Source: Methyloligellaceae bacterium
GTDB taxonomy: Bacteria; Pseudomonadota; Alphaproteobacteria; Rhizobiales; CBDCYM01
Direction: 5' to 3'
NCBI GenBank assembly: GCA_965224165.1
Contig: CBDCYM010000011.1
Span: 1,522,877 to 1,586,876 of the forward strand
DNA length: 64,000 nucleotides
The notes beneath the pieces were generated by a model, which saw only the letters and a program-made list of their open reading frames with translations, made no database searches and had not been told where the DNA came from. A program made the position numbers and the translations under genes. Below, piece after piece: positions 2-59,587 of the stretch. The stretch's first letter is position 1. Each line of letters opens with the position of its first letter.

Positions 2-637
2 ATTGATCTTATTGGCTATGCGGGGCACTCGGAAGGTGGCTATATAGCGCCACTGGCAGCTCAGGAAGAGGTCCCCGGTTTCATAATCTTGTTGGCCGGT
101 CCAGCACAAAAACTCTCTGACGTCATTCTTCAGCAGCAAATTGATATTGCGAAAGCGCATAACAAAGACGAAGCCGAGTTTAAGAAAATCCATGTGGTGA
201 TCGGCGGGTTGGTTCGAATTCTGAAGTCTTCATCGACCCCAGAGGAAGCAAGGAAAAAACTTCAAGCCTTTCTGAAAAAAAATGATCTTTCACGCGAACA
301 GATCGATGCGACCATTGATTTGTTTGCGACAAAATGGGGGTTATGGATCATCGACCGTGACCTTATGCCATCCATCAAAGCCTATAAGGGACCCGTCCTC
401 GCGGTTTTTGGTGGGAAGGATTTGCAAGTCTCAGCCGAGATAAATGCGCCGATCATAGAAAAAGCCCTATCTCACAAAGCCTCCCAAGTGGTGACGTTTC
501 CTGAGTTAAACCATCTTTTTCAACCAGCAAAAACGGGTTCCCCGGAAGAGTATGTTTGGATAGAAACAACCTTTGATGAAAGCGCGCTAAAGGTAATTGC
601 TGATTGGTTGAAAGGTGTTATCGCGCGGGGTCGGTAA
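2..637 (+). CDS. alpha/beta hydrolase, 5'-partial; the reading frame is open from window position 2
   Basis: The frame of ORF 89..637 stays open back to nt 2. The upstream translation contains GHSEGG, a GxSxG nucleophile elbow. The C-terminal part resembles an alpha/beta hydrolase fold. Confidence 0.55.
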   Translation: MDLIGYAGHSEGGYIAPLAAQEEVPGFIILLAGPAQKLSDVILQQQIDIAKAHNKDEAEFKKIHVVIGGLVRILKSSSTPEEARKKLQAFLKKNDLSREQIDATIDLFATKWGLWIIDRDLMPSIKAYKGPVLAVFGGKDLQVSAEINAPIIEKALSHKASQVVTFPELNHLFQPAKTGSPEEYVWIETTFDESALKVIADWLKGVIARGR

Positions 638-720: not shown

Positions 721-1103
721 GCATTAGGTCACGAACTCATAAATGTGGTTAAAAATGGTATGAGTCAATCTGTTCGAATACAAGAAGCAAAGGTGCAGGA
801 AATGTGGTGCATTTTCTAACCTTTGCGACGCTGTAGTTGGACAGATTGGCCATATCCTCCGGACGCTGAAACGGCTTCAATCTGCAGCGTCGAAGCGCTT
901 GAAAAGGGAAACAACCCTTGTCTGCACGCTTCTCCTAGATCAACCCACGTTCAAGTAAATTCACTTGAACGTGGTAAAGTTGATCGATATCAAAAAATGA
1001 GAGCATCCAAGCGATTCCATCTAAACGCAGGATGCTCTAGCATCCTTTTGCCGTTTCTAGCGCCATTTTCAGCGCATTTATGAGTCCGTGACCTAGCGTG
1101 GAT
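721..1103. mobile_element. MITE-like unit of about 380 bp bounded by imperfect 20-22 bp inverted repeats (726-745 aggtcacgaactcataaatg; 1076-1095 catttatgagtccgtgacct)
   Basis: The reverse complement of the right end matches the left end at about 19 of 20 positions. The unit encloses the two-hairpin repeat copy A. No credible coding sequence lies inside; ORF 823..1083 is composed of repeat sequence. Confidence 0.4.
947..1056. repeat. Two-hairpin intergenic repeat, copy A. Hairpin 1 is 956-985 with a 12-bp stem. Hairpin 2 is 1011-1049.
   Basis: About 75% identical to 29341-29450. Both hairpins are kept in the second copy through compensatory substitutions. Confidence 0.7.
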
Positions 1104-1209: not shown

Positions 1210-2466
1210 ATGGAGGCGTTAGGGCATCTGGCATTGATTTGGGCAGCGGTGTTTGTCGCCAACGTCTTGGCGCAGAGGACTAGGCTCACCTCAGTCCTCT
1301 GGTTCCTGGGCCTGGGTGCCGTCATGGTCAATGTCGGTCTGATGCCTAAAACCAGCGATCCGTTTATCTCTGGTCTTGCGAACCTTGGCATCATCCTGGT
1401 TATGTTTGCGTTGGGTTTTGAGGAAAAGACCAACAACTTCATCCAAAGCATAAAGAAGAGTTGGGGCATTGCCTTATTTGGTGCCGGTGCACCATTTCTC
1501 GCGGCTTTCTTGGTGGCAGAATATTTCTGGAATGATGTAAATGTCGCGCTGATGTGTGGTTTGACAATGGCAGCTACCGCCGTATCGCTGACCATGGTAT
1601 CTCTGAAAAGTGTGGGGTTGCATCACTCACGTTCCGCCACGCGCATTATGACGTCGGCAGTTCTGGACAGCATTACATCACTTACACTGGTGGCAATTCT
1701 CGTGCCGCTTGCGACCGGCCAAGGTCCGTTAGACATCAAGCAGCTTGCCACGATTCTCGGCAAGGCTATCGCCTTCTTCCTGGTTGTCACGGCGCTTGGG
1801 GCTGCGTTACTGCCGCACGAGGCTCGCGGATGGTTGCGGCATATACCACTGGTTAGGAGCTACGGCATGCGGCATCTGCTGGCATTCGGCCAGCATTCGA
1901 CGCTGACGGTTCTATTGCTTGCCGTGCTGGTCGGTCTGCTCGCCCATGAATTCGGTTTGCATCCAGCAGTCGGTGCTTATATGGCGGGATTGATCATCAA
2001 GCAGGAATATTTCCAGCGTAAAGATGAAAAAGGTTCCTACGAAGATACAAAACGCATTATTGATAATGTGGCCTTCTCATGGATCGGTCCGGTGTTCTTT
2101 GTCACGCTTGGCACCAAGCTCGTGTTTGACTGGCAAATTCTGATTTCGGTAATCCCGCATATCGCTATAATGGTGACGAGCGTGGCCGTGGCACAAATCA
2201 CTTTCGCGACACTTGCCGCCCGCTTCACGGGCGGGATGGACTGGCCGGGCAGTATTTTGATAGGCTTTGGAATGCTTGGCCGTGCTGAATTAGCGTTTGT
2301 GGTTATGGATATCGCTTACGTGCAGAATTCAATTTTGAACACTCAAGCCTTCTACACCTTAATGGCGACGGCGTTCATCCTAAACATTTTGGTTCCAGTT
2401 ACGATTACGCTTTGGAAGCCCTATTATTCTGTATCGCACGCGCCGGGTTCTGCACCATCGCATTAG
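1210..2466 (+). CDS. cation:proton antiporter (CPA/Na+-H+ exchanger family) membrane protein
   Basis: 418 aa with about 11-12 hydrophobic helices and a glycine-rich transporter-like composition, typical of the Na_H exchanger family. Family assignment is by overall resemblance only. Confidence 0.5.
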   Translation: MEALGHLALIWAAVFVANVLAQRTRLTSVLWFLGLGAVMVNVGLMPKTSDPFISGLANLGIILVMFALGFEEKTNNFIQSIKKSWGIALFGAGAPFLAAFLVAEYFWNDVNVALMCGLTMAATAVSLTMVSLKSVGLHHSRSATRIMTSAVLDSITSLTLVAILVPLATGQGPLDIKQLATILGKAIAFFLVVTALGAALLPHEARGWLRHIPLVRSYGMRHLLAFGQHSTLTVLLLAVLVGLLAHEFGLHPAVGAYMAGLIIKQEYFQRKDEKGSYEDTKRIIDNVAFSWIGPVFFVTLGTKLVFDWQILISVIPHIAIMVTSVAVAQITFATLAARFTGGMDWPGSILIGFGMLGRAELAFVVMDIAYVQNSILNTQAFYTLMATAFILNILVPVTITLWKPYYSVSHAPGSAPSH

Positions 2467-17159: not shown

Positions 17160-17166
17160 GTGACTA

Positions 17167-17279
17167 TCTCTAAATACTCCCTTCGGACCATCCACCATCT
17201 ACCATCCCCCGCCACCCGCCATATTCTGCGATAATTAGGCGGGTGCAGGGGATGGTAGATGGTGGATGGTTTTTAGAGG
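17167..17279. repeat. Long palindromic repeat element, copy 1 (family with copies 2 and 3 at 29171-29257 and 59424-59536)
   Basis: Shares the core gccacccgcc-atattctgcgataattag-gcgggtg with the other two copies. Both arms carry the same extra 'atctacc' segment relative to the other copies. The left arm has a tactcccttcgg segment that the right arm lacks. Confidence 0.85.
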
Positions 17280-27287: not shown

Positions 27288-28046
27288 TTATTTCTGCCAG
27301 TCGCCTAGCACAGCATTGACAAGTGCAAGTGCTGCAACGCCGGCTGTATCTGCCCTCATGATACGAGGTCCGAGCGAAATTGCCGTTACAAACGGCAAGC
27401 CCTTAAGCCATGTCTGCTCCTCTGTTTCAAAACCGCCTTCCGGCCCTATGAGAACTGCAAGTGGTCCTGGTTTTATGTCCCGGAGCTGATCAATAGGTGC
27501 CGCAATTTCTGCGCTCTCATCGCAATAAATCAGCGGCCGTTCATGTGTCCAACCCTTTAACGCCTGGGTGAGCTTCTGAGGCTCTTCAATGTCTGGAACA
27601 TGAAGAATGCCGCACTGTTCCGCCGCCTCAATAGCATTGGCGCGCATACGTTCCAAGTTTACACGAGCAACCTGGGTGCGGCTGGTGATCACAGGGTTCA
27701 GGACAGAAACACCCATTTCAACGGCTTTTTGAACCATATAATCCATGCGTGCACGCTTTAAAGGGGCGAAAAGGTAATGGATATCCTGTCCATTTTCTTG
27801 AGGACGAATCTGAACGACAATTCTTAATCGGCAATGGCCTTTACGAACTTCAATGAGGTGAGCGCGCCACTCACCGTCTTTGCCGTTAAAAACCGACACG
27901 TCATCTCCTTCCCGCAGCCGAAGGACATTGACTAAATAATTTGTCTGGTTTGCTGTACTTATATGCTCAGCATTGGAACTAAGGGGAGTTTCCACAAAAA
28001 GCCGGGGCGCAGAAAAATCAAAGCGGGGCACTAGGCCGCTTTCCAT
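27288..28046 (-). CDS. rsmE: 16S rRNA (uracil1498-N3)-methyltransferase, RsmE family
   Basis: RsmE-like N-terminal PUA-like region and C-terminal SPOUT domain, about 250 aa. Confidence 0.75.
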   Translation of the reverse strand: MESGLVPRFDFSAPRLFVETPLSSNAEHISTANQTNYLVNVLRLREGDDVSVFNGKDGEWRAHLIEVRKGHCRLRIVVQIRPQENGQDIHYLFAPLKRARMDYMVQKAVEMGVSVLNPVITSRTQVARVNLERMRANAIEAAEQCGILHVPDIEEPQKLTQALKGWTHERPLIYCDESAEIAAPIDQLRDIKPGPLAVLIGPEGGFETEEQTWLKGLPFVTAISLGPRIMRADTAGVAALALVNAVLGDWQK

Positions 28047-28585
28047 TTTATGGAGCAGCCCATGGAAGGAATTTGTTCTTTAGGACCGATGCCGGTTTCA
28101 GCCACCTGCTTCATTGCTTCAAAAAGGTCACGTCTAACATCCGTAGGCGCGGTTTCTTTCCGGCTTGCATCAAGTCGTCCGCGATATTGCAATTCGAGGT
28201 CCTTGTTAAAACCAAAAAAGTCCGGCGTACAAGCAGCATTATAAGCTTTTGCAACAGCCTGGGTTTCATCGTGCAAATAGGGAAATGTGAAGCCGTGCTC
28301 ATCGGCAAACCGTTTCATATTTTCAAATGAGTCATCCGGATAAGCTTCCGCATCATTTGCGCAGATGGCCACAGAGCGAATACCTAATGGTTCGAGGGCA
28401 GCAACTTCCCGTACAATCCGGTCAATCACCGATTTCACATAGGGGCAATGATTACAAATAAACATGATCAGCAAGCCCCGCTCACCCAGCATATCATCTC
28501 GACGGTATATATTGCCGTCTGTTCCGGGCAAGTGAAAGTCAGGTGCTGTCCAACCAAAATCACATATCGGTGTTTCTACAGGCAT
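28031..28585 (-). CDS. thioredoxin-fold thiol-disulfide oxidoreductase (CNHC active site)
   Basis: Active-site motif ICNHCPYV within a thioredoxin-like fold, 184 aa. Confidence 0.7.
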   Translation of the reverse strand: MPVETPICDFGWTAPDFHLPGTDGNIYRRDDMLGERGLLIMFICNHCPYVKSVIDRIVREVAALEPLGIRSVAICANDAEAYPDDSFENMKRFADEHGFTFPYLHDETQAVAKAYNAACTPDFFGFNKDLELQYRGRLDASRKETAPTDVRRDLFEAMKQVAETGIGPKEQIPSMGCSIKWKAA

Positions 28586-29101
28586 CGTGTTTCCTAGCAG
28601 AATTTTTCCAGTTTAATAGGTGGATGTTGATATTTGAAGGTGAAGCTTAGGTGAGTATCACATCTAATGCAATTCAGAGTTGACGCGGAAGGGTTTTTCA
28701 TATCATAATCCAAATATAGATATGAACGGAGGTTTAAGAAAATGACCCCTCCAAAAAGGTTCGAGCTATCCTGAGCGTGCTTTATTACAGCTTTTCCTTA
28801 GGATGGCATAATATTCCATAAGAAAGATCTTTGCGAAAGTTTAACTCCGAACGTATGGTGGGAGAGTATGCTTGTGGTATAGTTCCGAATACATTCAATT
28901 TCCACCTTTTGTTTGGAGTGATGCTTGATAGACCTGATGTGATCAGGTGGGCCATATGAGGCAGTAGTTACAACGTATGCTGTGCTGACATGGGGTTATC
29001 CGGGCGGAGCAACGTAAAGGACCTGCAAAATCGCGAGAGGCCCGACATCACTGAGTTAGGACTGTATCAAACGTAAGGAATTCAGTAAAAGTCAAGGAGG
29101 G

Positions 29102-29138
29102 GGCCTCGTGAACATGGACTCACGAGGCCCTTTTCTTG
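29102..29138 (+). terminator. Rho-independent terminator-like hairpin (ggcctcgtga-N8-tcacgaggcc followed by CTTTTCTT) with no annotated + strand gene upstream
   Basis: 10-bp perfect stem plus a T-rich tract on the + strand only. It is preceded by about 500 bp with no credible ORF. Confidence 0.4.
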
Positions 29139-29170: not shown

Positions 29171-29257
29171 AACCATCCACCACCCCCTGCCACCCGCCAT
29201 ATTCTGCGATAATTAGGCGGGTGGCAGGGGGTGGCCCGAAGGGAGTATTTAGAGATG
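29171..29257. repeat. Long palindromic repeat element, copy 2 (each arm differently truncated)
   Basis: The core ctgccacccgcc-atattctgcgataattag-gcgggtggcag is identical to copy 3. The right arm keeps cccgaagggagtatttagagatgccc. Confidence 0.85.
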
Positions 29258-29340
29258 CCCAGTTGATTTATACCAATCCAACCTACAAGCTTGCCGGAAA
29301 TAATTGACTATCGAGGTTATTTTGTACATTTGATCCTTAT

Positions 29341-29450
29341 TGAGAGTCACTAGATCAATCTGCGTTCAAGTGGATTCACTTGAATGCAGAAAAATTGATC
29401 GATATCAAAGAAGTAGAGCATGTTAAGCGAACTCACTTGAGCGCAACATG
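29341..29450. repeat. Two-hairpin intergenic repeat, copy B (hairpin 1 at 29350-29379, hairpin 2 at 29404-29445)
   Basis: Aligns with 947-1056. Stem differences are compensatory: ccacg/cgtgg against ctgcg/tgcag, and catcc/ggatg against catgtt/aacatg. Confidence 0.7.
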
Positions 29451-29519
29451 CTCTAGAATGTGGGATGATACTCCCCGGTGACAGTATGATGTTGGGCGAA
29501 ATATTGGAGATCATATTTC

Positions 29520-30386
29520 ATGGGTATTTCAGCCTTTATGCATAGGGGGAGGGGCGCATTTTTGTGTGTCTCTCTGATTGTCATGCAAGCATCGTTAGCA
29601 TGGGGTGAGAAGACGCCTTCCCATCCCTGGCCGACAACATCAAAGACGTTTGTTTCTCTTGCGACGCATATAAAGCCTCCCAAGGGTTACCATCGCATCA
29701 AAGCTGAACCTGGAAGTTTTGCCCACTGGCTCCGCAGCTTGCCTTTGAAGCCATCAGGAAGTTTTGTCCGCCTCTATAACGGCAGTTTCAGATTTAATCA
29801 GCTCGCCCATTATGCGGTTATAGATATGGATGTCGGTAAACGCGATTTGCAGCAATGCGCCGATGCCGTCATGCGTCTCCGTGCCGAATATCTATATGCT
29901 CAAGGGCGACGGAATGAAATTGCCTTTAATTTCACAGGCGGGTCTCGCATTCCGTTTTCCCGTTGGAGCAAGGGGTGGCGGCCGCACGTCAAAGGTAAAC
30001 GCGTGAGTTGGTCACGGCGCGGCAAAAGAGGGGCCCATTACAAGAGTTTTCGGAAATATATGGACATTATTTTTGCGTATGCGGGAACATACTCGCTTGA
30101 ACGTGAGATGATCTCGGTCTCAGTTAAAGACATGGCCATTGGAGATGTTTTTATCCAGGGTGGTTTTCCAGGTCATGCCATCCTTGTTGCGGACATGGTG
30201 AAGAACCCAGAGACAGGCGAAAAACGCTTTCTTCTGATCCAAAGTTTCATGCCTGCGCAAGATATTCATGTTTTGCGTGATCCGAAAAATCCGCTTACGC
30301 CTTGGTATGGTCTTGATTTCAGCAAAACACTCATAACACCGGACTGGATCTTCCGGGCTAAAGATTTGCGGCGGTTTAAGAATTGA
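29520..30386 (+). CDS. hypothetical secreted protein, 288 aa (possibly DUF4846-like)
   Basis: N-terminal signal peptide (LCVSLIVMQASLAWG), basic, no catalytic motif recognised. It lies just downstream of two repeat elements. Confidence 0.5.
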   Translation: MGISAFMHRGRGAFLCVSLIVMQASLAWGEKTPSHPWPTTSKTFVSLATHIKPPKGYHRIKAEPGSFAHWLRSLPLKPSGSFVRLYNGSFRFNQLAHYAVIDMDVGKRDLQQCADAVMRLRAEYLYAQGRRNEIAFNFTGGSRIPFSRWSKGWRPHVKGKRVSWSRRGKRGAHYKSFRKYMDIIFAYAGTYSLEREMISVSVKDMAIGDVFIQGGFPGHAILVADMVKNPETGEKRFLLIQSFMPAQDIHVLRDPKNPLTPWYGLDFSKTLITPDWIFRAKDLRRFKN

Positions 30387-33279: not shown

Positions 33280-33351
33280 ATCAGATAGAAGGAATCGAAC
33301 CTTCGTCCCATTGGGGGAAACCCAATTGCTCTACCTCTGAGCTATATCCGA
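33280..33351 (-). tRNA. tRNA-like cloverleaf, 72 nt, with an aberrant anticodon arm (6-bp stem with a 5-nt loop, or loop GUUUCCC reading UUC). Possibly a tRNA pseudogene or tRNA-derived element.
   Basis: Reverse complement is TCGGATATAGCTCAGAGGTAGAGCAATTGGGTTTCCCCCAATGGGACGAAGGTTCGATTCCTTCTATCTGAT. D-arm and T-arm are canonical (TAGCTCAGAGGTAGAGC; GAAGGTTCGATTCCTTC). The acceptor stem has a G3·U70 wobble and no CCA is encoded. The anticodon loop is not a canonical 7-nt loop with a purine at position 37. Confidence 0.4.
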
Positions 33352-33605
33352 GTGGCGGATCGGCACTGGAACACGGCATCCGCAGCGCGGCCCGCGCCGG
33401 AGAGGTCTCAGCGAGCCCCAACCAAAGTGCGACAATCCACCAACAGGTCTAGCTGATAAAGTAGCAAAAGCAAAGCCGCCTCTTGCACAAAAGTCCGTAC
33501 CATGCGACCAAAATAGAGGTTTAGGAGAGAGATTCGCGGATGCAGCGCAGTTGGTACCTTCTACGAAAGTCGTCATTGCGACCGAGCATTTTAGATGTGC
33601 TATCG

Positions 33606-33664
33606 GCTAACGCCTACTTGAGCACTTGATATTTTGTGCTAACGGCCAGCGCCTACTTGAGCAC
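33606..33664. repeat. Direct repeat of gctaacg…cgcctacttgagcac (perfect 15-mer at 33611-33625 and 33650-33664) in the parE upstream region
   Basis: Read directly from the sequence, about 150 bp upstream of the parE start. Confidence 0.5.
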
Positions 33665-33806: not shown

Positions 33807-35840
33807 ATGGGAAAAGTAGGCGATCTTTTCGCAAGATTAGAAGAAAAAATGGAACAAGCTCCGATCAGCCGCCGCGGGTCGAAAAAAGGCCGGGAGGGTG
33901 AAGCAAAATATACGGCTGCCGATATTGAGGTGCTCGAAGGGCTGGAACCCGTGCGCCGCCGTCCTGGCATGTATATTGGTGGCACGGATGAAAAGGCGCT
34001 GCATCATCTCTTTGCCGAAGTTATCGATAATTCCATGGATGAAGCCGTTGCCGGGCATGCGAGTTGGATTGAGGTTGCGTTGGACAAAGACGGCTGGTTG
34101 ACGGTAACGGACAATGGCCGGGGTATTCCTGTTGACCCTCATCCAAAATATAAAAAGAAATCCGCTCTTGAAGTCATTATGACCACGCTGCATGCAGGCG
34201 GAAAATTCAACTCTAAGGTTTATGACACATCAGGCGGTTTGCATGGCGTTGGCGTTTCGGTGGTCAATGCCCTTTCCGAAAAGCTTGAGGTTGAGGTTGC
34301 GCGCGATAAGCAGCTTTACCGGCAAATCTACAGTCGTGGCAAACCGCAAGGAGCGCTTAAAAAGCTAGGATCTATAAAGAATCGCCGTGGTACCAAAATC
34401 CGCTTCAAACCGGATGAGAAAATCTTCGGCAAAAAAGCGGCTTTTAAGCCTTCGCGATTATTCCGCATGGCGCGATCCAAAGCCTATCTCTTCGGCGGTG
34501 TGGAAATTCGTTGGTCCTGTGCGCCAAGCCTCATTGACGCGAAAGATGAGACACCGCCGCAAGCGGTTTTTCATTTTCCGGGAGGTCTAAAGGACTTCTT
34601 GGCGTCGCGCATTGAAGGGCGGACATATGTTGCCCGCGATGCTTTCTTTGGCAAACACAACCAGGATGGCGGTCATGGTTCCGTGGAATGGGCCATCGCT
34701 TGGATTGGCGATGCGGACGGCTTTTTAAACTCTTATTGTAACACTGTGCCGACGGCTGACGGCGGCACGCATGAAGCCGGATTGCGCGCTGCTCTCACCA
34801 AAGGGTTGAGGGCCTATGGTGAGCTAACGGGCAATAAAAAGGCGGCGCAGATAACGGCTGATGACGTTTTGTCTTCCGCTGCGGCTATGCTCTCAGTTTT
34901 CATTCGGGAACCAGAGTTTCAAGGCCAAACAAAGGATAAACTCGCCACGCAGGAGGCGGCTCGTATTGTCGAGAGCACGCTGCGCGATGCATTTGATCAT
35001 TGGCTGACGGCGAGCCCTCAGCAAGCGAACAAACTCTTGGAATGGGTTATTGACCGCTCAGAAGAACGCCTGCGCCGCCGTCGCGAAAAAGAAGTAAACC
35101 GTAAAACCGCGGCCCGCAAACTGCGTCTGCCTGGGAAACTTGCTGATTGTTCAAAGTCGGCAAAGGATGGAACGGAAATTTTTATCGTTGAGGGGGACTC
35201 AGCTGGTGGTTCAGCCAAACAGGCGCGCAATCGTGCGACCCAAGCCGTCTTGCCTCTGCGTGGCAAAATTCTAAACGTTGCCAATGCCAGCTCCGCCAAG
35301 CTTGCGCAAAACCAGCTTTTGTCGGACCTCATTCAGGCTTTGGGCTGTGGAATGGGAACAAGTTACCGGGATGATGATTTGCGCTACGAGAAGGTTATCA
35401 TCATGACCGACGCCGATGTGGACGGTGCCCATATTGCGTCTCTACTCATCACCTTTTTTTACCGGCAAATGCCGGAACTCATCGAAAATGGCCATCTTTA
35501 TCTAGCCGTGCCGCCGCTTTATAAAATTACGCAAGGCGCTAAATCGGTCTATGCCCGTGATGATGCGCACAAAGATAGTTTGCTTGAGAGCGATTTTACA
35601 GGGCGCGGTAAGATCGAAATTTCCCGCTTTAAAGGCCTTGGTGAAATGATGCCGGCCCAGCTTAAAGAAACCACCATGAATCCGGAGACGCGCATTCTGC
35701 TTCGTGTTGAAGTGGATGAAGATGATCGCACCCAAACCTCAAAAGCAGTTGATCAACTTATGGGAAATAAGCCGGAAGCGCGCTTTAAGTTTATCCAGGA
35801 CAATGCTGAATATGTCAGTGGTGAGGAGCTGGATATTTAA
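33807..35840 (+). CDS. parE: DNA topoisomerase IV subunit B
   Basis: GHKL ATPase, TOPRIM and GyrB C-terminal motifs. The 677-aa length is the ParE size (short against GyrB, about 800 aa). Confidence 0.88.
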   Translation: MGKVGDLFARLEEKMEQAPISRRGSKKGREGEAKYTAADIEVLEGLEPVRRRPGMYIGGTDEKALHHLFAEVIDNSMDEAVAGHASWIEVALDKDGWLTVTDNGRGIPVDPHPKYKKKSALEVIMTTLHAGGKFNSKVYDTSGGLHGVGVSVVNALSEKLEVEVARDKQLYRQIYSRGKPQGALKKLGSIKNRRGTKIRFKPDEKIFGKKAAFKPSRLFRMARSKAYLFGGVEIRWSCAPSLIDAKDETPPQAVFHFPGGLKDFLASRIEGRTYVARDAFFGKHNQDGGHGSVEWAIAWIGDADGFLNSYCNTVPTADGGTHEAGLRAALTKGLRAYGELTGNKKAAQITADDVLSSAAAMLSVFIREPEFQGQTKDKLATQEAARIVESTLRDAFDHWLTASPQQANKLLEWVIDRSEERLRRRREKEVNRKTAARKLRLPGKLADCSKSAKDGTEIFIVEGDSAGGSAKQARNRATQAVLPLRGKILNVANASSAKLAQNQLLSDLIQALGCGMGTSYRDDDLRYEKVIIMTDADVDGAHIASLLITFFYRQMPELIENGHLYLAVPPLYKITQGAKSVYARDDAHKDSLLESDFTGRGKIEISRFKGLGEMMPAQLKETTMNPETRILLRVEVDEDDRTQTSKAVDQLMGNKPEARFKFIQDNAEYVSGEELDI

Positions 35841-40589: not shown

Positions 40590-41966
40590 ATGGCCACCGA
40601 AGTCTTGATGCCAGCCCTATCCCCTACGATGGAGGAGGGCAAACTTGCCAAATGGTTGGTAAAAGAGGGAGATGAGATCACTGCAGGAGATGTGATCGCA
40701 GAGATTGAAACAGATAAAGCGACCATGGAGGTTGAGGCGGTGGATGAGGGGACCGTCGGTAAAATCCTCATTAATGAGGGAACTGAAAACGTTAAGGTGA
40801 ATACGCCAATCGCTGTCATCCTACAGGAAGACGAACCAAGCGATAAAACAATATCAACCGAAAAGACATCACCCACAGATGTCGTGGATGTGCCTGTCGA
40901 AAGCGACAAATCCGGTGCATCGCTCGCCAAGCCGGATTATTCAGCGTCACTAGCAGCTGAGCCTGACATTCCGGCAGGGACTCAGATGGTTAGTCTCACG
41001 GTTCGTGAAGCTCTGCGCGACGCCATGGCTGAAGAAATGCGTCGTGACGAGGATGTATTTGTAATGGGTGAAGAAGTTGCAGAATATCAAGGGGCTTACA
41101 AAATCACCCAGGGGTTGTTGGATGAGTTTGGAGACCGGCGCGTTATTGATACACCGATTACCGAGCACGGGTTTGCCGGTGTTGGGGTTGGGGCTGCCTT
41201 TGCAGGCCTTAAGCCCATCGTTGAGTTCATGACGTGGAATTTTGGTATGCAGGCCATCGACCATATCATTAATTCGGCGGCAAAAACCCTCTACATGTCG
41301 GGCGGTCAGATGCGCTGTCCGATCGTATTTCGTGGTCCAAATGGCGCTGCTTCGCGGGTGGCGGCGCAACATAGCCAATGCTATTCAGCATGGTATTCGC
41401 ATGTGCCTGGGTTGAAAGTTATTTCTCCCTTTACGGCGGCGGACCATAAGGGATTGCTTAAAGCTGCCATTCGCGATCCTAATCCGGTTGTTTTTCTTGA
41501 AAACGAAATACTCTATGGCCAAAACTTCGATGTTCCGGACATTGAGGATTGGGTTGTGCCGATTGGCAAGGCAAAAGTGGTTCGAGAAGGAAAGGACGTT
41601 ACAATTGTCTCCTTTTCCCGGGGAATGGCCTATGCGTTTGAGGCGGCTGAAATATTGACCGGTGACGGCATTGACGCTGAGATTATTGATTTGAGAACTT
41701 TGAGGCCGTTGGACATCCCAACACTTATCAATTCCGTTAAAAAGACCAACCGGATTGTAACTGTTGAAGAAGCCTGGCCTGTTTGTTCAGTCGGTTCTGA
41801 AATTTGTTCAACCATCGCTCGTGAGGCCTTTGATTATCTTGACGCCCCACCTACAAAGGTTTCTGGTGCAGATATTCCTATGCCCTATGCCGCTAATCTT
41901 GAAAAATTGGCGTTGCCATCGGCGGATCAAGTGGTCAAAGCAGTCAAATCTGTTTGTTACGTATAG
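40590..41966 (+). CDS. pdhB: pyruvate dehydrogenase E1 component, beta subunit, with an N-terminal lipoyl domain
   Basis: Lipoyl-attachment motif [10 protein letters not shown] at the N-terminus followed by transketolase-like E1-beta domains, 458 aa. Confidence 0.9.
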
Positions 41967-42078
41967 TCATTACGTGTCAGTCGAGTGTGTTATTGCGTCT
42001 ATTATTAAGCACAGAAGTTCAACCCAGATATTGCGTTCATATTAAGCGTTATATCTTGGTGATAATCGGGGAATAGAC

Positions 42079-43440
42079 ATGCCTATACCTATTCTTATGC
42101 CCGCACTTTCACCAACCATGGAAGACGGCACACTTGCCAAGTGGTATGTGAAGGAAGGTGATGAAGTGACATCCGGTGATGTCATTGCAGAAATTGAAAC
42201 CGACAAAGCCACCATGGAGGTGGAAGCTGTTGATGAGGGAACTGTGGGGAAAATTCTTATCGTTGAAGGTACGGAGGGGGTCGCGGTTAATGCACCAATC
42301 GCTGTGCTGTTAGAAGAGGGCGAAGATAGTGGTGCGCTTCAGGCTTTTAATGCCGAAGGGGCCAAACACGCGACCCCAACGGCGGCTGCGACAATTATTG
42401 AGACAACGTCTGATCAGCCAGTTGAGTCAAAAGAGGCATCTGTAGAAGTGGTAGAACAATCAACACAAACAGCGTCACTTAACGGACAAGGTGGACGAAT
42501 TTTGGCAAGTCCTTTAGCTCGAAGGATTGCCAAGGATAATGAAGTTGATATCGCGGTTGTTTCAGGCTCAGGCCCTCACGGGCGCGTGGTCAAGCGCGAT
42601 ATTGAACGCGCGGTCAAAGAGGGCGTGCAGGCTGATACCGGTAGGGCGGTGGTCGCCCCAGGTGCTGGCGACCAGTCGAAAGCAGGGCCGTCTCTTCCCA
42701 TAGGGATGAGTGATGATCAAATCATGGCTCTTTATGATTCCGGCAGTTATGAGGTCGTGCCTCATGACAATATGCGTAAAACGATTGCGCGGCGCTTGGT
42801 TGAATCCAAAATTACCATCCCGCATTTTTATCTTTCAATTGAATGTGAGCTGGATGCACTTTTAGCTGCTCGCAGGCGCATGAATGATATTGCACCTCAA
42901 GAGGGACCCAAAACCTATAAGCTTTCAGTCAATGATTTTATTATCAAAGCAATGGCGATGGCCCTGCAACAAGTGCCGCATGCAAACGCAACTTGGACGG
43001 AGCAAGGTATTTTGCGCCACAGAAGTTCCGATGTGGGTGTTGCTGTTGCTGTTGATGGCGGGTTGTTTACACCGGTTCTCCGACATGCGGAATTAAAAAG
43101 CCTTTCGGAAATCTCAAACGAGATGAAGGATCTGGCCGAACGGGCTAGAAATCGACGGCTAGCGCCACATGAATATCAAGGTGGCACGACATCAATTTCC
43201 AATCTTGGCATGTTTGGAATTAAGAGATTTGACGCGGTTATTAATCCGCCTCATGCCACCATTTTGGCCGTGGGAGTGGGCGAGCGCCGACCGGTTGTAA
43301 AAGGTGATGCCGTACAAATTGCAAATATCATGTCTGTCACGCTTTCTTGTGATCATCGTGTCGTTGATGGAGCATTGGGGGCGGAATTGTTAGGTGCGTT
43401 TAAGCGGTTCATCGAAGAGCCAGTCTCCATGTTGGTTTAG
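42079..43440 (+). CDS. pdhC: dihydrolipoamide acetyltransferase (E2)
   Basis: Lipoyl domain ([11 protein letters not shown]), E3-binding domain, and catalytic domain with the …DHRVVDGA… motif. Confidence 0.9.
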
Positions 43441-43492
43441 TATCTGGTGAAATGTTTTTGCACGTTGATTTAGATGGAGACTATAAGAAAAA

Positions 43493-44893
43493 ATGGCTGA
43501 GACTTCCTTCGATCTTGTAATCATTGGTGCAGGACCGGGAGGCTATGTCACAGCCATCCGAGCGGCACAGCTTGGCTTAAAAACGGCCATAATAGAGGAA
43601 AAGCACCTTGGCGGCATTTGTCTGAATTGGGGATGTATTCCAACCAAGGCATTGCTCAGAACCTCTGAAATTTATCACTATATGCAGCATGCGAAAGACT
43701 ATGGGTTGTCCGTTAAAAACCCTAGTTTTGATTTAAGTGCTGTTGTGAAGCGTTCACGCAAAGTATCTAAGCAGCTTAATCAGGGGGTTGCACATCTCCT
43801 GAAAAAGAACAGAGTCACCGTTATTGACGGGCGGGGAACTCTGGTAGCGCCTGGCAAGGTATCTGTTGTCAAAGATAGCAAACCTATTGGCGAATATGCA
43901 GCAAAGCATATTATTCTTGCCACTGGCGCCCGGCCGCGAGCACTTCCAAATATTCAACCTGATGGCAAACTCATATGGACTTATTTTGAAGCCCTTGTTC
44001 CTAAGGAAATGCCGAAATCATTACTTGTCATTGGATCTGGTGCTATCGGAATTGAGTTTGCTTCCTTCTATCTCACAATGGGTGCCGATGTAACGGTTGT
44101 TGAAGTAATGGATCAGATCATGCCCGTTGAGGACGCTGAGATTGCCGCTGCGGCCCGTAAACGCATGGAAAAGCAGGGCATGAAGATTATAACCGGTGCT
44201 ACCGTGAAGTCTGTAAAGAAGGAGGCTGACTCGGTAACCTCTACAATTGAAGACAGCAAAGGCAAAACCAACGAAATCACGACCGACCGGGTTATCTCGG
44301 CGGTTGGTGTCAGTGGCAATATTGAAGCGCTGGGTCTCGAGAGCCTTGGTGTGAAAACAGATAAGGGGTGTATTGTCACTGATGGTTTTGGGCAAACTAA
44401 TGTCAAGGGGATTTATGCAATCGGCGATGTTGCAGGGCCACCGATGTTGGCTCATAAAGCAGAGCATGAAGGTGTGATTTGTGTTGAAAAGATTGCTGGG
44501 CTTAATGTTCATCCATTGGAAAAAGAAAAAATCCCAGGGTGCACCTATTGTCATCCGCAAGTGGCCTCCGTTGGGCTAACAGAGGCAAAAGCCAAAGATG
44601 CCGGATATGATGTGAAAGTTGGCCGCTTTCCCTTTATCGGTAATGGTAAGGCCATTGCCCTTGGTGAGCCAGATGGTCTCATAAAGACGGTTTTTGATAG
44701 TAAGACGGGCCAGCTTCTTGGCGCTCATATGGTTGGTGCTGAGGTGACCGAGCTTATTCAGGGTTTCGTAGTTGCTATGAACCTAGAAACCACAGAGGAA
44801 GAGCTGATGCATACGGTCTTCCCGCATCCAACGCTATCTGAAATGATGCATGAGTGCGTGCTCGACGCTTATGATAGGGTTATTCATATGTAG
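43493..44893 (+). CDS. lpdA: dihydrolipoyl dehydrogenase (E3)
   Basis: FAD motif GAGPGGY, redox-active disulfide [13 protein letters not shown], 466 aa. Confidence 0.9.
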
Positions 44894-59272: not shown

Positions 59273-59423
59273 TAGTGTGTTAAGATTGCCACGTCAGGTG
59301 TTGCAAGTGCAGAAACCTTGCTAACAGTATTGAAATCTACCACAAAAATTACTCTCTAAAACCAATTTGCCATTGATAATCAATAAGTTAGTGCTATTTG
59401 GCAATTAACAATACGATTGGATA

Positions 59424-59536
59424 CCTCTAAATACTCCCTTCGGGCCATCCACCATCCCCTGCCACCCGCCATATTCTGCGATAATTAGGCGGGTGGCAGG
59501 GGATGGTGGATGGCCCGAAGGGAGTATTTAGAGATG
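59424..59536. repeat. Long palindromic repeat element, copy 3. This is the most complete copy, with perfect 47-bp inverted arms around an 18-nt centre (atattctgcgataattag).
   Basis: The left arm tctctaaatactcccttcgggccatccaccatcccctgccacccgcc equals the reverse complement of the right arm. Confidence 0.9.
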
Positions 59537-59587
59537 CCCGATTAGACAACCCTTTACACCAAACAAGCGTTTGTTTAACATCGCTTT

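What the first reader, a model, noticed from the sequence alone, without database searches (positions are those of the whole stretch)
29341..29450. Second repeat family: a two-hairpin element whose copies differ by compensatory base-pair changes, as in a structured RNA
Loci 947-1056 and 29341-29450 align at about 75% identity. Hairpin 1 reads ccacgttcaagtaaattcacttgaacgtgg in copy A and ctgcgttcaagtggattcacttgaatgcag in copy B. Hairpin 2 reads agagcatcc…ggatgctct in A and tagagcatgtt…aacatgctcta in B. The stem differences are matched on the opposite strand, so both helices survive while the loops diverge. Covariation of this kind is the classic signature of a functional RNA structure: an sRNA, a transcription attenuator, or a RIME/REP-type structured repeat.
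Basis: seen in the sequence. Interest (0 to 1): 0.65.

Follow-up and report, generated by a model that had tools for sequence, protein, structure and literature searches.

The report
Small mobile two-hairpin intergenic repeat
The two look-alike 106-107-base stretches are copies of a small, non-coding, probably mobile repeat with two hairpins, common in soil and marine relatives of rhizobia. It is a known kind of element, not a new regulatory RNA.

Summary
The two copies lie at 935-1040 and 29350-29456, both on the + strand and both intergenic. Each starts and ends with CTAG and folds into two hairpins. They differ by five compensated base pairs and one G-U pair, and no pair is broken.

The copies belong to a large family: at least 180 copies in Hyphomicrobiales genomes and marine or sediment metagenomes. 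Across 102 distinct copies, 96% of stem positions pair, against 81% after shuffling. All 12 upper-stem pairs of hairpin 1 covary.

The evidence points to a mobile repeat rather than an RNA gene:
- Subfamilies are specific to each genome.
- Copies show no preferred orientation towards neighbouring genes.
- Neither window copy carries a promoter or a terminator.
- Tandem arrays share their CTAG.
- A homologous 108-nt element on Sinorhizobium plasmids is present or precisely absent at the same site in related strains. Empty sites have one CTAG and filled sites have two.

The closest known elements are RIME1/RIME2 of rhizobia and Bru-RS1/2 of Brucella. I could not obtain their reference sequences, so membership by sequence is untested. 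The enzyme that moves the element was not identified.

Verdict: new member of a known kind, of modest interest.

The parts
935..1040 (+). Copy A of the element (106 nt), from CTAG to CTAG. It is intergenic, between ORF 89-637 (+) and the cation antiporter-like ORF 1210-2466 (+).
   Evidence: (covariance model 109.9 bits).
935..938 (+). Left boundary CTAG of copy A. This is the presumed target-site tetranucleotide.
   Evidence: CTAG is conserved at this position across the family.
938..985 (+). Hairpin 1 of copy A. Lower stem GATCAAC (938-944) pairs with GTTGATC (979-985). Upper stem 945-956 pairs with 963-974. The loop is 957-962 and the 4-nt 3' bulge TAAA is 975-978.
   Evidence: Folds. Family covariation.
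986..999 (+). Single-stranded linker of copy A (GATATCAAAAAATG). Its first part is conserved in sequence across the family.
   Evidence: per-column conservation.
1000..1038 (+). Hairpin 2 of copy A. Outer stem AGAGCATCC pairs with GGATGCTCT, and there is a short inner stem GCG/CGC.
1037..1040 (+). Right boundary CTAG of copy A.
29350..29456 (+). Copy B of the element (107 nt), from CTAG to CTAG. It is intergenic, between ORF 28031-28585 (-) and the DUF4846 gene 29520-30386 (+). A copy of the window's other palindromic repeat (29173-29234) ends 115 nt before it.
   Evidence: (covariance model 119.9 bits).
29353..29400 (+). Hairpin 1 of copy B. Lower stem 29353-29359 pairs with 29394-29400. Upper stem 29360-29372 pairs with 29377-29389, including one G-U pair. 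The loop is GATT (29373-29376), within GGATTC, which contains GANTC. The bulge is 29390-29393.
29401..29413 (+). Linker of copy B (GATATCAAAGAAG).
29414..29455 (+). Hairpin 2 of copy B. Outer stem TAGAGCATGTT pairs with AACATGCTCTA. The reverse complement of its 3' half resembles the 5' half of hairpin 1, giving an imperfect terminal inverted repeat of about 32 nt at about 72% identity.
   Evidence: (the whole element can also be paired end to end), plus direct reading of the sequence.

Best explanation
The two loci are copies of a non-autonomous, MITE-like intergenic repeat, about 107 bp long, of the RIME / Bru-RS kind found in Hyphomicrobiales.

Anatomy: CTAG; a 7-bp lower stem (GATCAAN / N'TTGATC); a 12-13-bp upper stem of free sequence topped by a GGAATC-type loop; a 4-nt bulge (WYAA) on the 3' side; a linker conserved in sequence; a second hairpin (AGAGCA... 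/ ...TGCTCT); CTAG.

Shown:
- The element is multi-copy and intergenic.
- Subfamilies are genome-specific.
- Orientation towards neighbouring genes is random.
- Tandem copies share a CTAG.
- In its Rhizobiaceae homologue, insertion is precise at a CTAG, which is then found on both sides.

Inferred:
- The element spreads by insertion at CTAG. This could be a TA or CTAG duplication by an IS630/IS5-type transposase acting in trans. It could also be hairpin-guided single-strand insertion next to CTAG.
- The hairpins, ends and linker are what the mobilising enzyme needs. That would explain why founders of new subfamilies keep the fold while individual copies slowly decay.
- Any effect on the neighbouring genes, such as RNA stability when the element is co-transcribed, would be secondary.
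For: 1. Family size. A pattern scan found 15 further copies in 6 alphaproteobacterial genomes. A metagenome scan hit its 120-locus limit, and profile searches give about 180 copies.

2. Sharp boundaries. Copies run from CTAG to CTAG and their flanks are unrelated.

3. Genome-specific subfamilies. Identity of the variable stem is 0.77-0.90 within a genome or sample and 0.55 between them.

4. Structure is conserved, stem sequence is not. 96.0% of cells pair against 81.1% in shuffles. 18 of 26 pairs show double changes. Register-shifted controls pair at 28-38%. Hairpin 2 folds as a single hairpin in 100 of 102 copies.

5. Copies decay. Within genomes there are 65 disrupted pairs, 49 one-sided changes that still pair, and 34 compensated pairs.

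6. No orientation rule. Gene contexts are >E< 37, <E< 32, >E> 23, <E> 18. Convergent contexts outnumber divergent ones, as for REP-type repeats.

7. Tandem arrays have a period of 102-104 nt and share a CTAG.

8. Homology to a 108-nt Sinorhizobium element. BLAST gives 77.5% identity over 70 nt and the covariance model scores 78 bits, E 8.5e-17. That element occurs in 70 Rhizobiaceae plasmid or chromid records, up to 14 places per record, and is unannotated in all but one of the listed records.

9. Two independent filled/empty site pairs for that homologue. The first is S. chiapasense against Ensifer adhaerens, NGR234 and Shinella. The second is S. fredii NXT3 against CCBAU 83666 and SMH12. Empty sites carry one CTAG. 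Filled sites carry CTAG, 104 nt, then CTAG.
Against: - No transposase or full-length parent element with matching ends was found, or systematically looked for. The ten large window ORFs scanned against Pfam are housekeeping genes with no transposase domain; the other window ORFs were not scanned.
- Empty sites were shown only for the Rhizobiaceae homologue. For the window's own subfamily I found none among the fetched loci, and the source genome has no close relative in the protein collection searched (next best homologue 66% identical).
- A classic DDE-type MITE does not need internal hairpins, so the strong stem covariation is not explained by that model alone.
- The single-strand (IS200/IS605-like) alternative predicts a replication-strand bias. 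None is seen: 61 against 84 by GC skew, and 34 same against 34 opposite within loci.
- G-U pairs exceed A-C mismatches 69 to 34 on the + strand. That could mean an RNA or top-strand function, although the excess comes mainly from two positions in one subfamily.
Confidence: 0.72

Rival explanations
1. A family of structured small RNAs, or RNA elements co-transcribed within mRNAs. The two hairpins would act at the RNA level, for example in protection against RNases, RNase III processing, or base-pairing by a trans-acting sRNA. Multiple copies would exist because the RNA gene has duplicated.
For: - Covariation is strong.
- G-U pairs exceed A-C mismatches 69 to 34 on the + strand.
- 43% of one-sided stem changes within genomes keep pairing through a wobble pair, against roughly one third expected.
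- Repeat elements of this general class show transcriptional activity in S. meliloti (PMC2873474).
- An Rfam family built on a Brucella sRNA candidate confirmed by RT-PCR (BASRCI27, RF02600; PMC9751625) shows the same architecture in a sub-threshold alignment to the Sinorhizobium homologue.
Against: - Neither window copy contains a promoter-like site or a terminator, and flanks are not conserved.
- Orientation towards neighbours is random.
- Copies decay, with 65 disrupted pairs within genomes.
- The number of pair positions with any G-U (18) equals the number with any A-C (18), so the strand signal is weak.
- Insertion polymorphism and tandem arrays sharing a CTAG are transposon features.
- No Rfam family reaches its threshold.
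Confidence: 0.1
2. A host-domesticated DNA-level element. The extruded hairpins, or the conserved GATC/ATCAA-rich linker and the GANTC loop, would serve as binding or methylation sites. Candidates include nucleoid proteins, gyrase and CcrM, as proposed for REP/BIME elements. On this view the sites are kept by the host rather than by transposition.
For: - The lower stem, the linker and the loop (GGAATC; GANTC in 61 of 102 copies) are more conserved in sequence than the upper stem.
- Copies are enriched between convergent genes (37) over divergent genes (18), as for REP elements.
- The same conserved blocks occur across several genera.
Against: - No binding protein is known for this element.
- The conserved blocks are equally what a transposase would recognise.
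- Genome-specific subfamilies and insertion polymorphism show active spread rather than conserved positions.
- GANTC is missing from 40% of loops, including copy A.
Confidence: 0.13
3. The compensatory pattern is a by-product of mutation, with no selection on structure. Template switching within quasi-palindromes during replication would copy one arm onto the other and so produce 'compensated' changes.
For: - The stems are long and nearly perfect.
- Three of 102 copies have lost the 4-nt bulge altogether, which is the outcome that arm-to-arm correction predicts (alignment rows L100:12657, L138:971 and L095:5863).
Against: - The asymmetric 4-nt bulge and the loop persist in 99 of 102 copies across distant genomes. 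Arm-to-arm correction would erase them.
- The conserved internal loop in hairpin 2 also persists.
- Within genomes, disrupted pairs (65) outnumber compensated ones (34). Correction is therefore not efficient, yet subfamily founders are all well paired.
Confidence: 0.05

Closest known systems
RIME1 / RIME2, Rhizobium-specific intergenic mosaic elements (Osteras, Stanley and Finan 1995, J Bacteriol 177:5485). The description is recalled from the abstract; the paper is not held in the library.
   Same: Size: RIME1 is 108 bp and RIME2 is 109 bp, against 106-107 bp here. Both are 'characterised by two large palindromes', intergenic and multi-copy, and their hosts are in the same order (Hyphomicrobiales). 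A 108-nt two-palindrome repeat on Sinorhizobium, Ensifer and Rhizobium replicons is homologous to the window element (78 bits). Its Rhizobiaceae-wide distribution matches what was reported for RIME1.
   Different: The lower stem and linker sequences differ: GATCAA/TTGATC here, AGCATC/GATGCT in the Sinorhizobium form. The host is not a member of Rhizobiaceae; it is close to Hyphomicrobiaceae or Methyloligellaceae. I could not compare with the published RIME sequences, so it is not shown that the Sinorhizobium element is RIME1.
Bru-RS1 / Bru-RS2 palindromic repeats of Brucella (Halling and Bricker 1994), and the Rfam family RF02600 BASRCI27 (Brucella sRNA CI27)
   Same: [quoted passage not shown] They are hot spots for IS711, which inserts at YTAR and duplicates TA (PMC3163539; PMC10800456). 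The BASRCI27 consensus printed has the same layout: a lower stem, an upper stem with a GGAAC loop, an AUAA 3' bulge, an A-rich linker, then a CUAAAGCG...CGCUUUAG hairpin. BASRCI27 is multi-copy in Methylorubrum (bioRxiv 10.1101/2022.01.24.477521).
   Different: The match is far below threshold: 18.4 bits against 59.8. It is seen only for the Sinorhizobium homologue, not for the window copies. The Brucella consensus has TTAA/CTAA/TTAG where this family has CTAG. Whether BASRCI27 overlaps a Bru-RS copy could not be checked.
Bacterial MITEs with TA or CTAG targets: the pneumococcal RUP element (107 bp, linked to IS630-Spn1) and Neisseria Correia elements (own knowledge; RUP is cited in PMC2267715)
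   Same: All are about 100-150 bp, lack an ORF, have imperfect terminal inverted repeats and insert at a TA-containing target. All are intergenic, can fold into stable stem-loops and occur in many copies. IS630 inserts at CTAG and duplicates TA (own knowledge).
   Different: This element has two separate local hairpins with strong covariation, plus a conserved asymmetric bulge, rather than one long pairing of its terminal repeats. No cognate IS was identified.
REP/REPIN elements moved by RAYT, and hairpin-ended derivatives of IS200/IS605 (single-strand HUH transposition)
   Same: In both, hairpins with conserved structure and variable stem sequence sit next to a conserved tetranucleotide. Copies are intergenic and enriched between convergent genes. 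Insertion next to a fixed tetranucleotide would also leave CTAG on both sides.
   Different: The tag here is CTAG, not GTAG or CGTC. The unit is about 107 nt with two unlike hairpins. There is no bias in orientation relative to replication strand. No RAYT or TnpA gene was examined.

Membership tests
RIME (Rhizobium-specific intergenic mosaic elements) | Repeat of about 108-109 bp characterised by two large palindromes | tested here: met
   The copies are 106 and 107 nt, each with two hairpins. The Sinorhizobium homologue is 108 nt.
RIME (Rhizobium-specific intergenic mosaic elements) | Intergenic and present in several copies per genome | tested here: met
   Both window copies are intergenic. 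Related contigs of 8-15 kb hold up to 5 copies, and one Sinorhizobium replicon has 14 places.
RIME (Rhizobium-specific intergenic mosaic elements) | Sequence similarity to the published RIME1 or RIME2 sequences | not testable with these tools
   The paper is not held and no paper in the library prints the sequence. The only indirect evidence is the covariance-model match to a Rhizobiaceae 108-nt repeat.
RIME (Rhizobium-specific intergenic mosaic elements) | Distribution limited to Rhizobiaceae | tested here: not met
   ParE of the window is 76-79% identical to Hyphomicrobiaceae, Methyloligellaceae and Methyloceanibacter proteins. Family members occur in diverse alphaproteobacterial MAGs.
Rfam RF02600 BASRCI27 / Bru-RS repeats of Brucella | Score at or above the Rfam gathering threshold (59.8 bits) | tested here: not met
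   The window copies give no hit at E up to 10. The Sinorhizobium homologue scores 18.4 bits. Sixteen related loci give no hit.
Rfam RF02600 BASRCI27 / Bru-RS repeats of Brucella | Sequence identity to Bru-RS1 or Bru-RS2, and use as an IS711 insertion site | not testable with these tools
   No Brucella chromosome and no Bru-RS sequence is available here. Descriptions come only from PMC3163539 and PMC10800456.
MITE (non-autonomous DDE transposon) | Short element with no coding capacity | tested here: met
   The copies are 106-107 nt. Only spurious ORFs overlap them.
MITE (non-autonomous DDE transposon) | Terminal inverted repeats | tested here: inconclusive
   In copy B the ends match imperfectly, about 72% over 32 nt by direct reading. 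Sub-threshold Rfam hairpin models (WsnRNA46, mir-1781) can pair the whole element end to end. Pairing between the two ends was not tested for covariation.
MITE (non-autonomous DDE transposon) | Target-site duplication, shown by filled and empty sites | tested here: inconclusive
   This is met for the Rhizobiaceae homologue at two independent sites: one CTAG when empty, two when filled. For the window's own subfamily I see only CTAG on both flanks and CTAG-sharing tandem arrays. No empty site was found.
MITE (non-autonomous DDE transposon) | A cognate autonomous IS with the same ends | not tested
   No transposase was found among the ten large window ORFs scanned. The other genomes were not searched.
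IS200/IS605-type or REP/RAYT single-strand elements | Orientation bias relative to the replication strand | tested here: not met
   The top strand lies on the G-rich strand in 61 of 145 copies. Pairs of copies within a locus are 34 in the same orientation and 34 opposite.
IS200/IS605-type or REP/RAYT single-strand elements | GTAG or CGTC tag next to a 20-40-nt palindrome (REP) | tested here: not met
   The tag is CTAG and the unit is about 107 nt with two different hairpins.
Intrinsic terminator or attenuator | GC-rich hairpin followed directly by a T-run | tested here: not met
   No terminator-like site lies within either copy. Hairpin 1 is followed by WYAAGTTGATC, and hairpin 2 by unrelated flanks.
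Cis-regulatory 5' leader or riboswitch | Fixed sense orientation upstream of a recurrent gene family | tested here: not met
   In 69 of 110 copies the downstream gene is on the other strand. The neighbouring genes of the two window copies are unrelated.

The most novel reading that the evidence does not exclude
The element may be moved by a mechanism that reads DNA or RNA structure rather than the sequence of terminal repeats. On this reading a hairpin-recognising enzyme, possibly of a type not yet linked to these repeats, cuts at CTAG. RIME, Bru-RS, the Rfam 'sRNA' BASRCI27 and this marine/sediment family would then form a single order-wide superfamily of structure-guided mobile elements. The conserved GGAATC (GANTC) loop could tie their activity to CcrM methylation and the cell cycle.
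Probability: 0.15. Interest if true: 0.65.

Novelty: new member of a known kind. Interest (0 to 1): 0.35.

Why it matters
First, this explains a striking covariation signal that could be mistaken for a new regulatory RNA. Covariation alone does not tell an RNA gene from a hairpin-bearing mobile repeat, and sRNA or motif screens in Alphaproteobacteria should mask this family.

Second, it extends a repeat type first described as specific to Rhizobium to free-living marine and sediment Hyphomicrobiales. It also supplies a covariance model, a clear anatomy and two insertion/empty-site pairs.

Third, it hints that at least one catalogued Brucella 'sRNA' family (BASRCI27) is the transcript of a related repeat.

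Fourth, the enzyme that moves RIME-type elements remains unidentified, as far as I know and in the papers I could read. The combination of a CTAG target, a structure that is kept and stem sequence that is free gives concrete constraints for finding it.

Tried and rejected
**Retrieving the source genome.**
- Exact-protein look-ups failed three times, although the identical protein sits on a 4.23-Mb contig in the collection.
- Genome-wide copy number and a search for a parent IS in the host were therefore not possible.

**Obtaining the RIME and Bru-RS reference sequences.**
- The papers are not held.
- A full-text search for sequence fragments found nothing relevant.
- A search on 'RIME1' returned only unrelated papers.

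**Rfam.**
- No match reaches threshold.
- The WsnRNA46 match (18.8 bits) only reflects that the two ends can pair. I set it aside as noise.
- The BASRCI27 match (18.4 bits) is kept as a lead only.

**Looking for an empty site for the window's own subfamily.**
- Joining the flanks of each copy and searching the fetched loci found only tandem arrays.

**Strand tests.**
- The G-U against A-C asymmetry is suggestive by cell counts but vanishes when counted by position.
- Orientation against GC skew and between copies shows no bias.

**An IHF-site reading of the linker** (WATCAANNNNTTR) was checked by eye and does not hold across subfamilies.

**A coding origin** was rejected. The copies are intergenic, and their differences are compensatory in the stems rather than at the codon level.

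Full report
**1. The observation**

The two loci are real and homologous. Copy A is window 935-1040 (106 nt) and copy B is 29350-29456 (107 nt). Both are on the + strand, and each begins and ends with CTAG. Similarity stops exactly at those tetranucleotides.

A search for the hairpin-1 core finds only these two places, where 0.01 matches are expected by chance. Each copy folds into two hairpins, at about -44 to -48 kcal/mol and z-scores of -6 to -7 against shuffles on either strand.

In the first 62 nt, 11 positions differ between A and B:
- six form three compensated pairs;
- one turns G-C into G-U;
- two lie in the loop, one in the bulge and one in the linker.

Hairpin 2 adds two more compensated pairs. 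No pair is broken.

Both copies are intergenic. A lies between ORF 89-637 and an antiporter-like gene at 1210-2466. B lies between the divergent ORF 28031-28585 and a DUF4846 gene at 29520-30386.

**2. A large family**

A pattern anchored on the flanks of hairpin 1 found 15 further copies in six alphaproteobacterial genomes. Up to six of these copies were in a single genome.

I built a covariance model from the 17 sequences. It finds no third copy in the window, but it finds extra copies in the fetched loci.

A second pattern run on metagenomes reached its 120-locus limit. Model and profile searches then gave about 180 copies, mostly from marine and sediment samples.

The window's host belongs to Hyphomicrobiales. 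Its ParE is 76-79% identical to proteins named Hyphomicrobiaceae, Methyloligellaceae and Methyloceanibacter.

**3. Anatomy**

The anatomy below comes from 102 distinct copies, read 5' to 3':
- CTAG.
- A 7-bp lower stem, GATCAAN pairing with N'TTGATC. Its seventh pair covaries.
- A 12-13-bp upper stem in which every pair covaries.
- An apical loop, GGAATC or a close variant. GANTC is present in 61 of 102 copies.
- A 4-nt bulge (WYAA) on the 3' side only, present in 99 of 102 copies.
- A linker conserved in sequence.
- A second hairpin with outer stem (T)AGMGCAW pairing with WTGCKCT(A). It folds as a single hairpin in 100 of 102 copies and comes in two length classes, about 42 and 65 nt.
- CTAG.

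Covariation statistics:

| Measure | Observed | Control |
|---|---|---|
| Cells forming a standard pair | 96.0% | 81.1% after shuffling |
| Same, with partners slid by 1-3 columns | - | 28-38% |
| Pairs with changes on both sides | 18 of 26 | - |
| Cells with changes on both sides | 368 | - |
| Shuffles reaching the observed value | 0 of 500, on every measure | - |

**4. What it is not**

- It is not a terminator or attenuator. No T-run follows either hairpin, and the scan finds no terminator-like site in either copy.
- It is not a 5' leader. With crude gene calls around 110 classifiable copies, the arrangements are convergent 37, co-directional antisense 32, co-directional sense 23 and divergent 18. 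Orientation towards neighbours is therefore random, and the downstream gene is on the opposite strand in 69 of 110 copies.
- It does not match any Rfam family at threshold.
- It has no promoter-like site of its own, and its flanks are not conserved.

**5. Evidence that it is, or was, mobile**

- Subfamilies are specific to a genome or sample. Identity of the 30-nt upper hairpin is 0.77-0.90 within groups and 0.55 between groups.
- Within a group, deviations from the group consensus are mostly damaging or neutral: 65 disrupted pairs, 49 one-sided changes that still pair, and 34 compensated pairs. Most of the compensated ones separate sub-subfamilies. The fold is therefore kept in lineages that found new copies, while individual copies drift. 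That pattern is expected if the fold is needed for spreading rather than for a function at each locus.
- Tandem arrays occur with a period of 102-104 nt, and neighbouring units share one CTAG.
- The decisive evidence comes from a homologue. The window element matches a 108-nt repeat on Sinorhizobium plasmids, by BLAST at 77.5% over 70 nt and by the covariance model at 78 bits, E 8.5e-17. That repeat has the same layout with a different lower stem: CTAG-AGCATC-hairpin-GATGCT-CTAG-AATCAAAGTG-CTAG-AGCG...CGCT-CTAG. It occurs in 70 Rhizobium, Sinorhizobium, Ensifer, Martelella and other records, in up to 14 places per record. It is unannotated in all but one of the listed records.
- At two independent loci this repeat is present in one strain or species and precisely absent from the orthologous site in others.
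  - Downstream of mocE, S. chiapasense is filled, while E. adhaerens, S. fredii NGR234 and Shinella are empty.
  - In S. fredii, strain NXT3 is filled, while CCBAU 83666 and SMH12 are empty. The sequences read GCCTAG|AGCGAATTCC (empty) against GCCTAG[104 nt ending CTAG]AGGCGGAATCC (filled).
  - Empty sites hold one CTAG and filled sites hold two. This is the footprint of insertion at CTAG with duplication of TA or of CTAG.

**6. Mechanism**

Shown: a non-coding repeat bounded by CTAG, with conserved ends, linker and fold, that has spread within genomes and whose homologue inserts at CTAG.

Inferred: mobilisation in trans. Two routes fit the footprint.
- A DDE transposase of the IS630 or IS5/IS427 type. 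From my own knowledge, IS630 inserts at CTAG and duplicates TA, and IS5 duplicates YTAR. IS711 inserts at YTAR in Bru-RS1 (PMC3163539).
- A hairpin-guided single-strand enzyme that cuts beside a fixed tetranucleotide.

The first route does not explain why the internal hairpins covary. The second predicts a replication-strand bias that is absent: 61 against 84 by GC skew, and 34 same against 34 opposite within loci. I therefore commit to 'mobile RIME-type repeat that inserts at CTAG' at 0.72 and leave the enzyme open.

The strand signal is weak. G-U pairs number 69 against 34 A-C mismatches on the + strand, but the numbers of pair positions showing each are equal (18 and 18). Two positions in one subfamily supply most of the excess.

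**7. Comparison with known families**

RIME1 (108 bp) and RIME2 (109 bp) were described in 1995 as Rhizobium repeats 'characterised by two large palindromes'. I recall this from the abstract; the paper is not held. The size, layout, intergenic habit and the Rhizobiaceae distribution of the Sinorhizobium homologue all fit. The reference sequences could not be compared, and the 'Rhizobiaceae only' criterion fails for the window's host.

Bru-RS1/2 of Brucella are palindromic repeats of 103-106 bp.

The Rfam family BASRCI27 is a Brucella sRNA candidate confirmed only by RT-PCR, and it is multi-copy in Methylorubrum. It aligns to the Sinorhizobium copy at 18.4 bits, far below its threshold of 59.8. 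Even so, its printed consensus shows the same lower stem, upper stem with GGAAC loop, AUAA bulge, A-rich linker and CUAAAGCG hairpin. I treat this as a lead, not as membership.

S. meliloti sRNA screens routinely mask RIMEs and related repeats and detect transcripts from some of them.

**8. Verdict**

The best reading is a new, widespread subfamily of a known kind of small mobile intergenic repeat. It is not a new regulatory RNA.

Interest is modest. The open points are the enzyme, the reason the fold is required, and whether RIME, Bru-RS and BASRCI27 form one superfamily.

Noticed in passing
window 17165-17256, 29173-29260, 59422-59539: A second, unrelated palindromic repeat family has three copies at 84-97% identity. 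Its core is CCACCCGCCATATTCTGCGATAATTAGGCGGGTGG, flanked by inverted GGGAGTATTTAGAG arms. One copy ends 115 nt upstream of copy B, so that intergenic region holds two different repeats.
   Followed up: no
window 28680-29138 (+): A possible small transcription unit. A promoter-like site (TTGACG-18-CATAAT, 10 of 12) lies at 28680-28709, and a strong terminator-like hairpin with a T-run lies at 29093-29138. Only a 42-aa ORF lies between them. It could be an sRNA or a small-protein gene.
   Followed up: no
L006 7671-7783 (+), contig CAVVOX010000007.1: An element with the same architecture but a different sequence: CTAG-TGCATCGA-hairpin-CAAAAA-TGATGCA-linker-CTAGTGC...GCACTAG. It sits directly beside two copies of the main family. 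This suggests a wider superfamily with interchangeable modules ('mosaic').
   Followed up: partly
L002 1363-1422 (+): A short form: hairpin 1 joined directly to the right end (…GTTGCTCAAG), with the linker and hairpin 2 missing. It is either a deletion derivative or a single-module element.
   Followed up: no
Family alignment A3, hairpin 2 (e.g. L006 7284-7419, L114 7572-7707): About a third of copies carry a 23-nt nested mini-hairpin (ATCCCCGCCTTCGCGGGGACATGC) inserted in the loop of hairpin 2. This gives a 65-nt class alongside the 42-nt class of hairpin 2.
   Followed up: partly
Apex of hairpin 1 (window 29371-29376; family-wide): The loop is GGAATC or a close variant whatever the stem sequence. 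It contains GANTC, the CcrM methylation motif of Alphaproteobacteria, in 61 of 102 distinct copies. Copy B has it (GGATTC) and copy A does not (AAATTC).
   Followed up: partly
L177 5931-6246; also L119 9424-9634 and L146 103-315: Head-to-tail tandem arrays of two or three elements, with a period of 102-104 nt. Adjacent units share a single CTAG.
   Followed up: yes
window 33596-33664: Two 30-nt direct repeats (TGTGCTAWCGGCYARCGCCTACTTGAGCAC, 90% identical) start 39 nt apart. They lie between a tRNA gene (33280-33351, - strand) and parE (33807-35840).
   Followed up: no
window 40590-44893: Three adjacent ORFs of similar size (458, 453 and 466 aa). DNA similarity between the first two (40608-40835 against 42097-42324, 72%) suggests tandem paralogues.
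   Followed up: no
L057 1501-1608 and L183 701-807 (Sinorhizobium plasmids): In both insertion/empty-site pairs, the target CTAG appears to contain the TAG stop codon of the upstream gene (annotated only for the mocE site in Shinella). The element therefore sits immediately after a coding region.
   Followed up: partly
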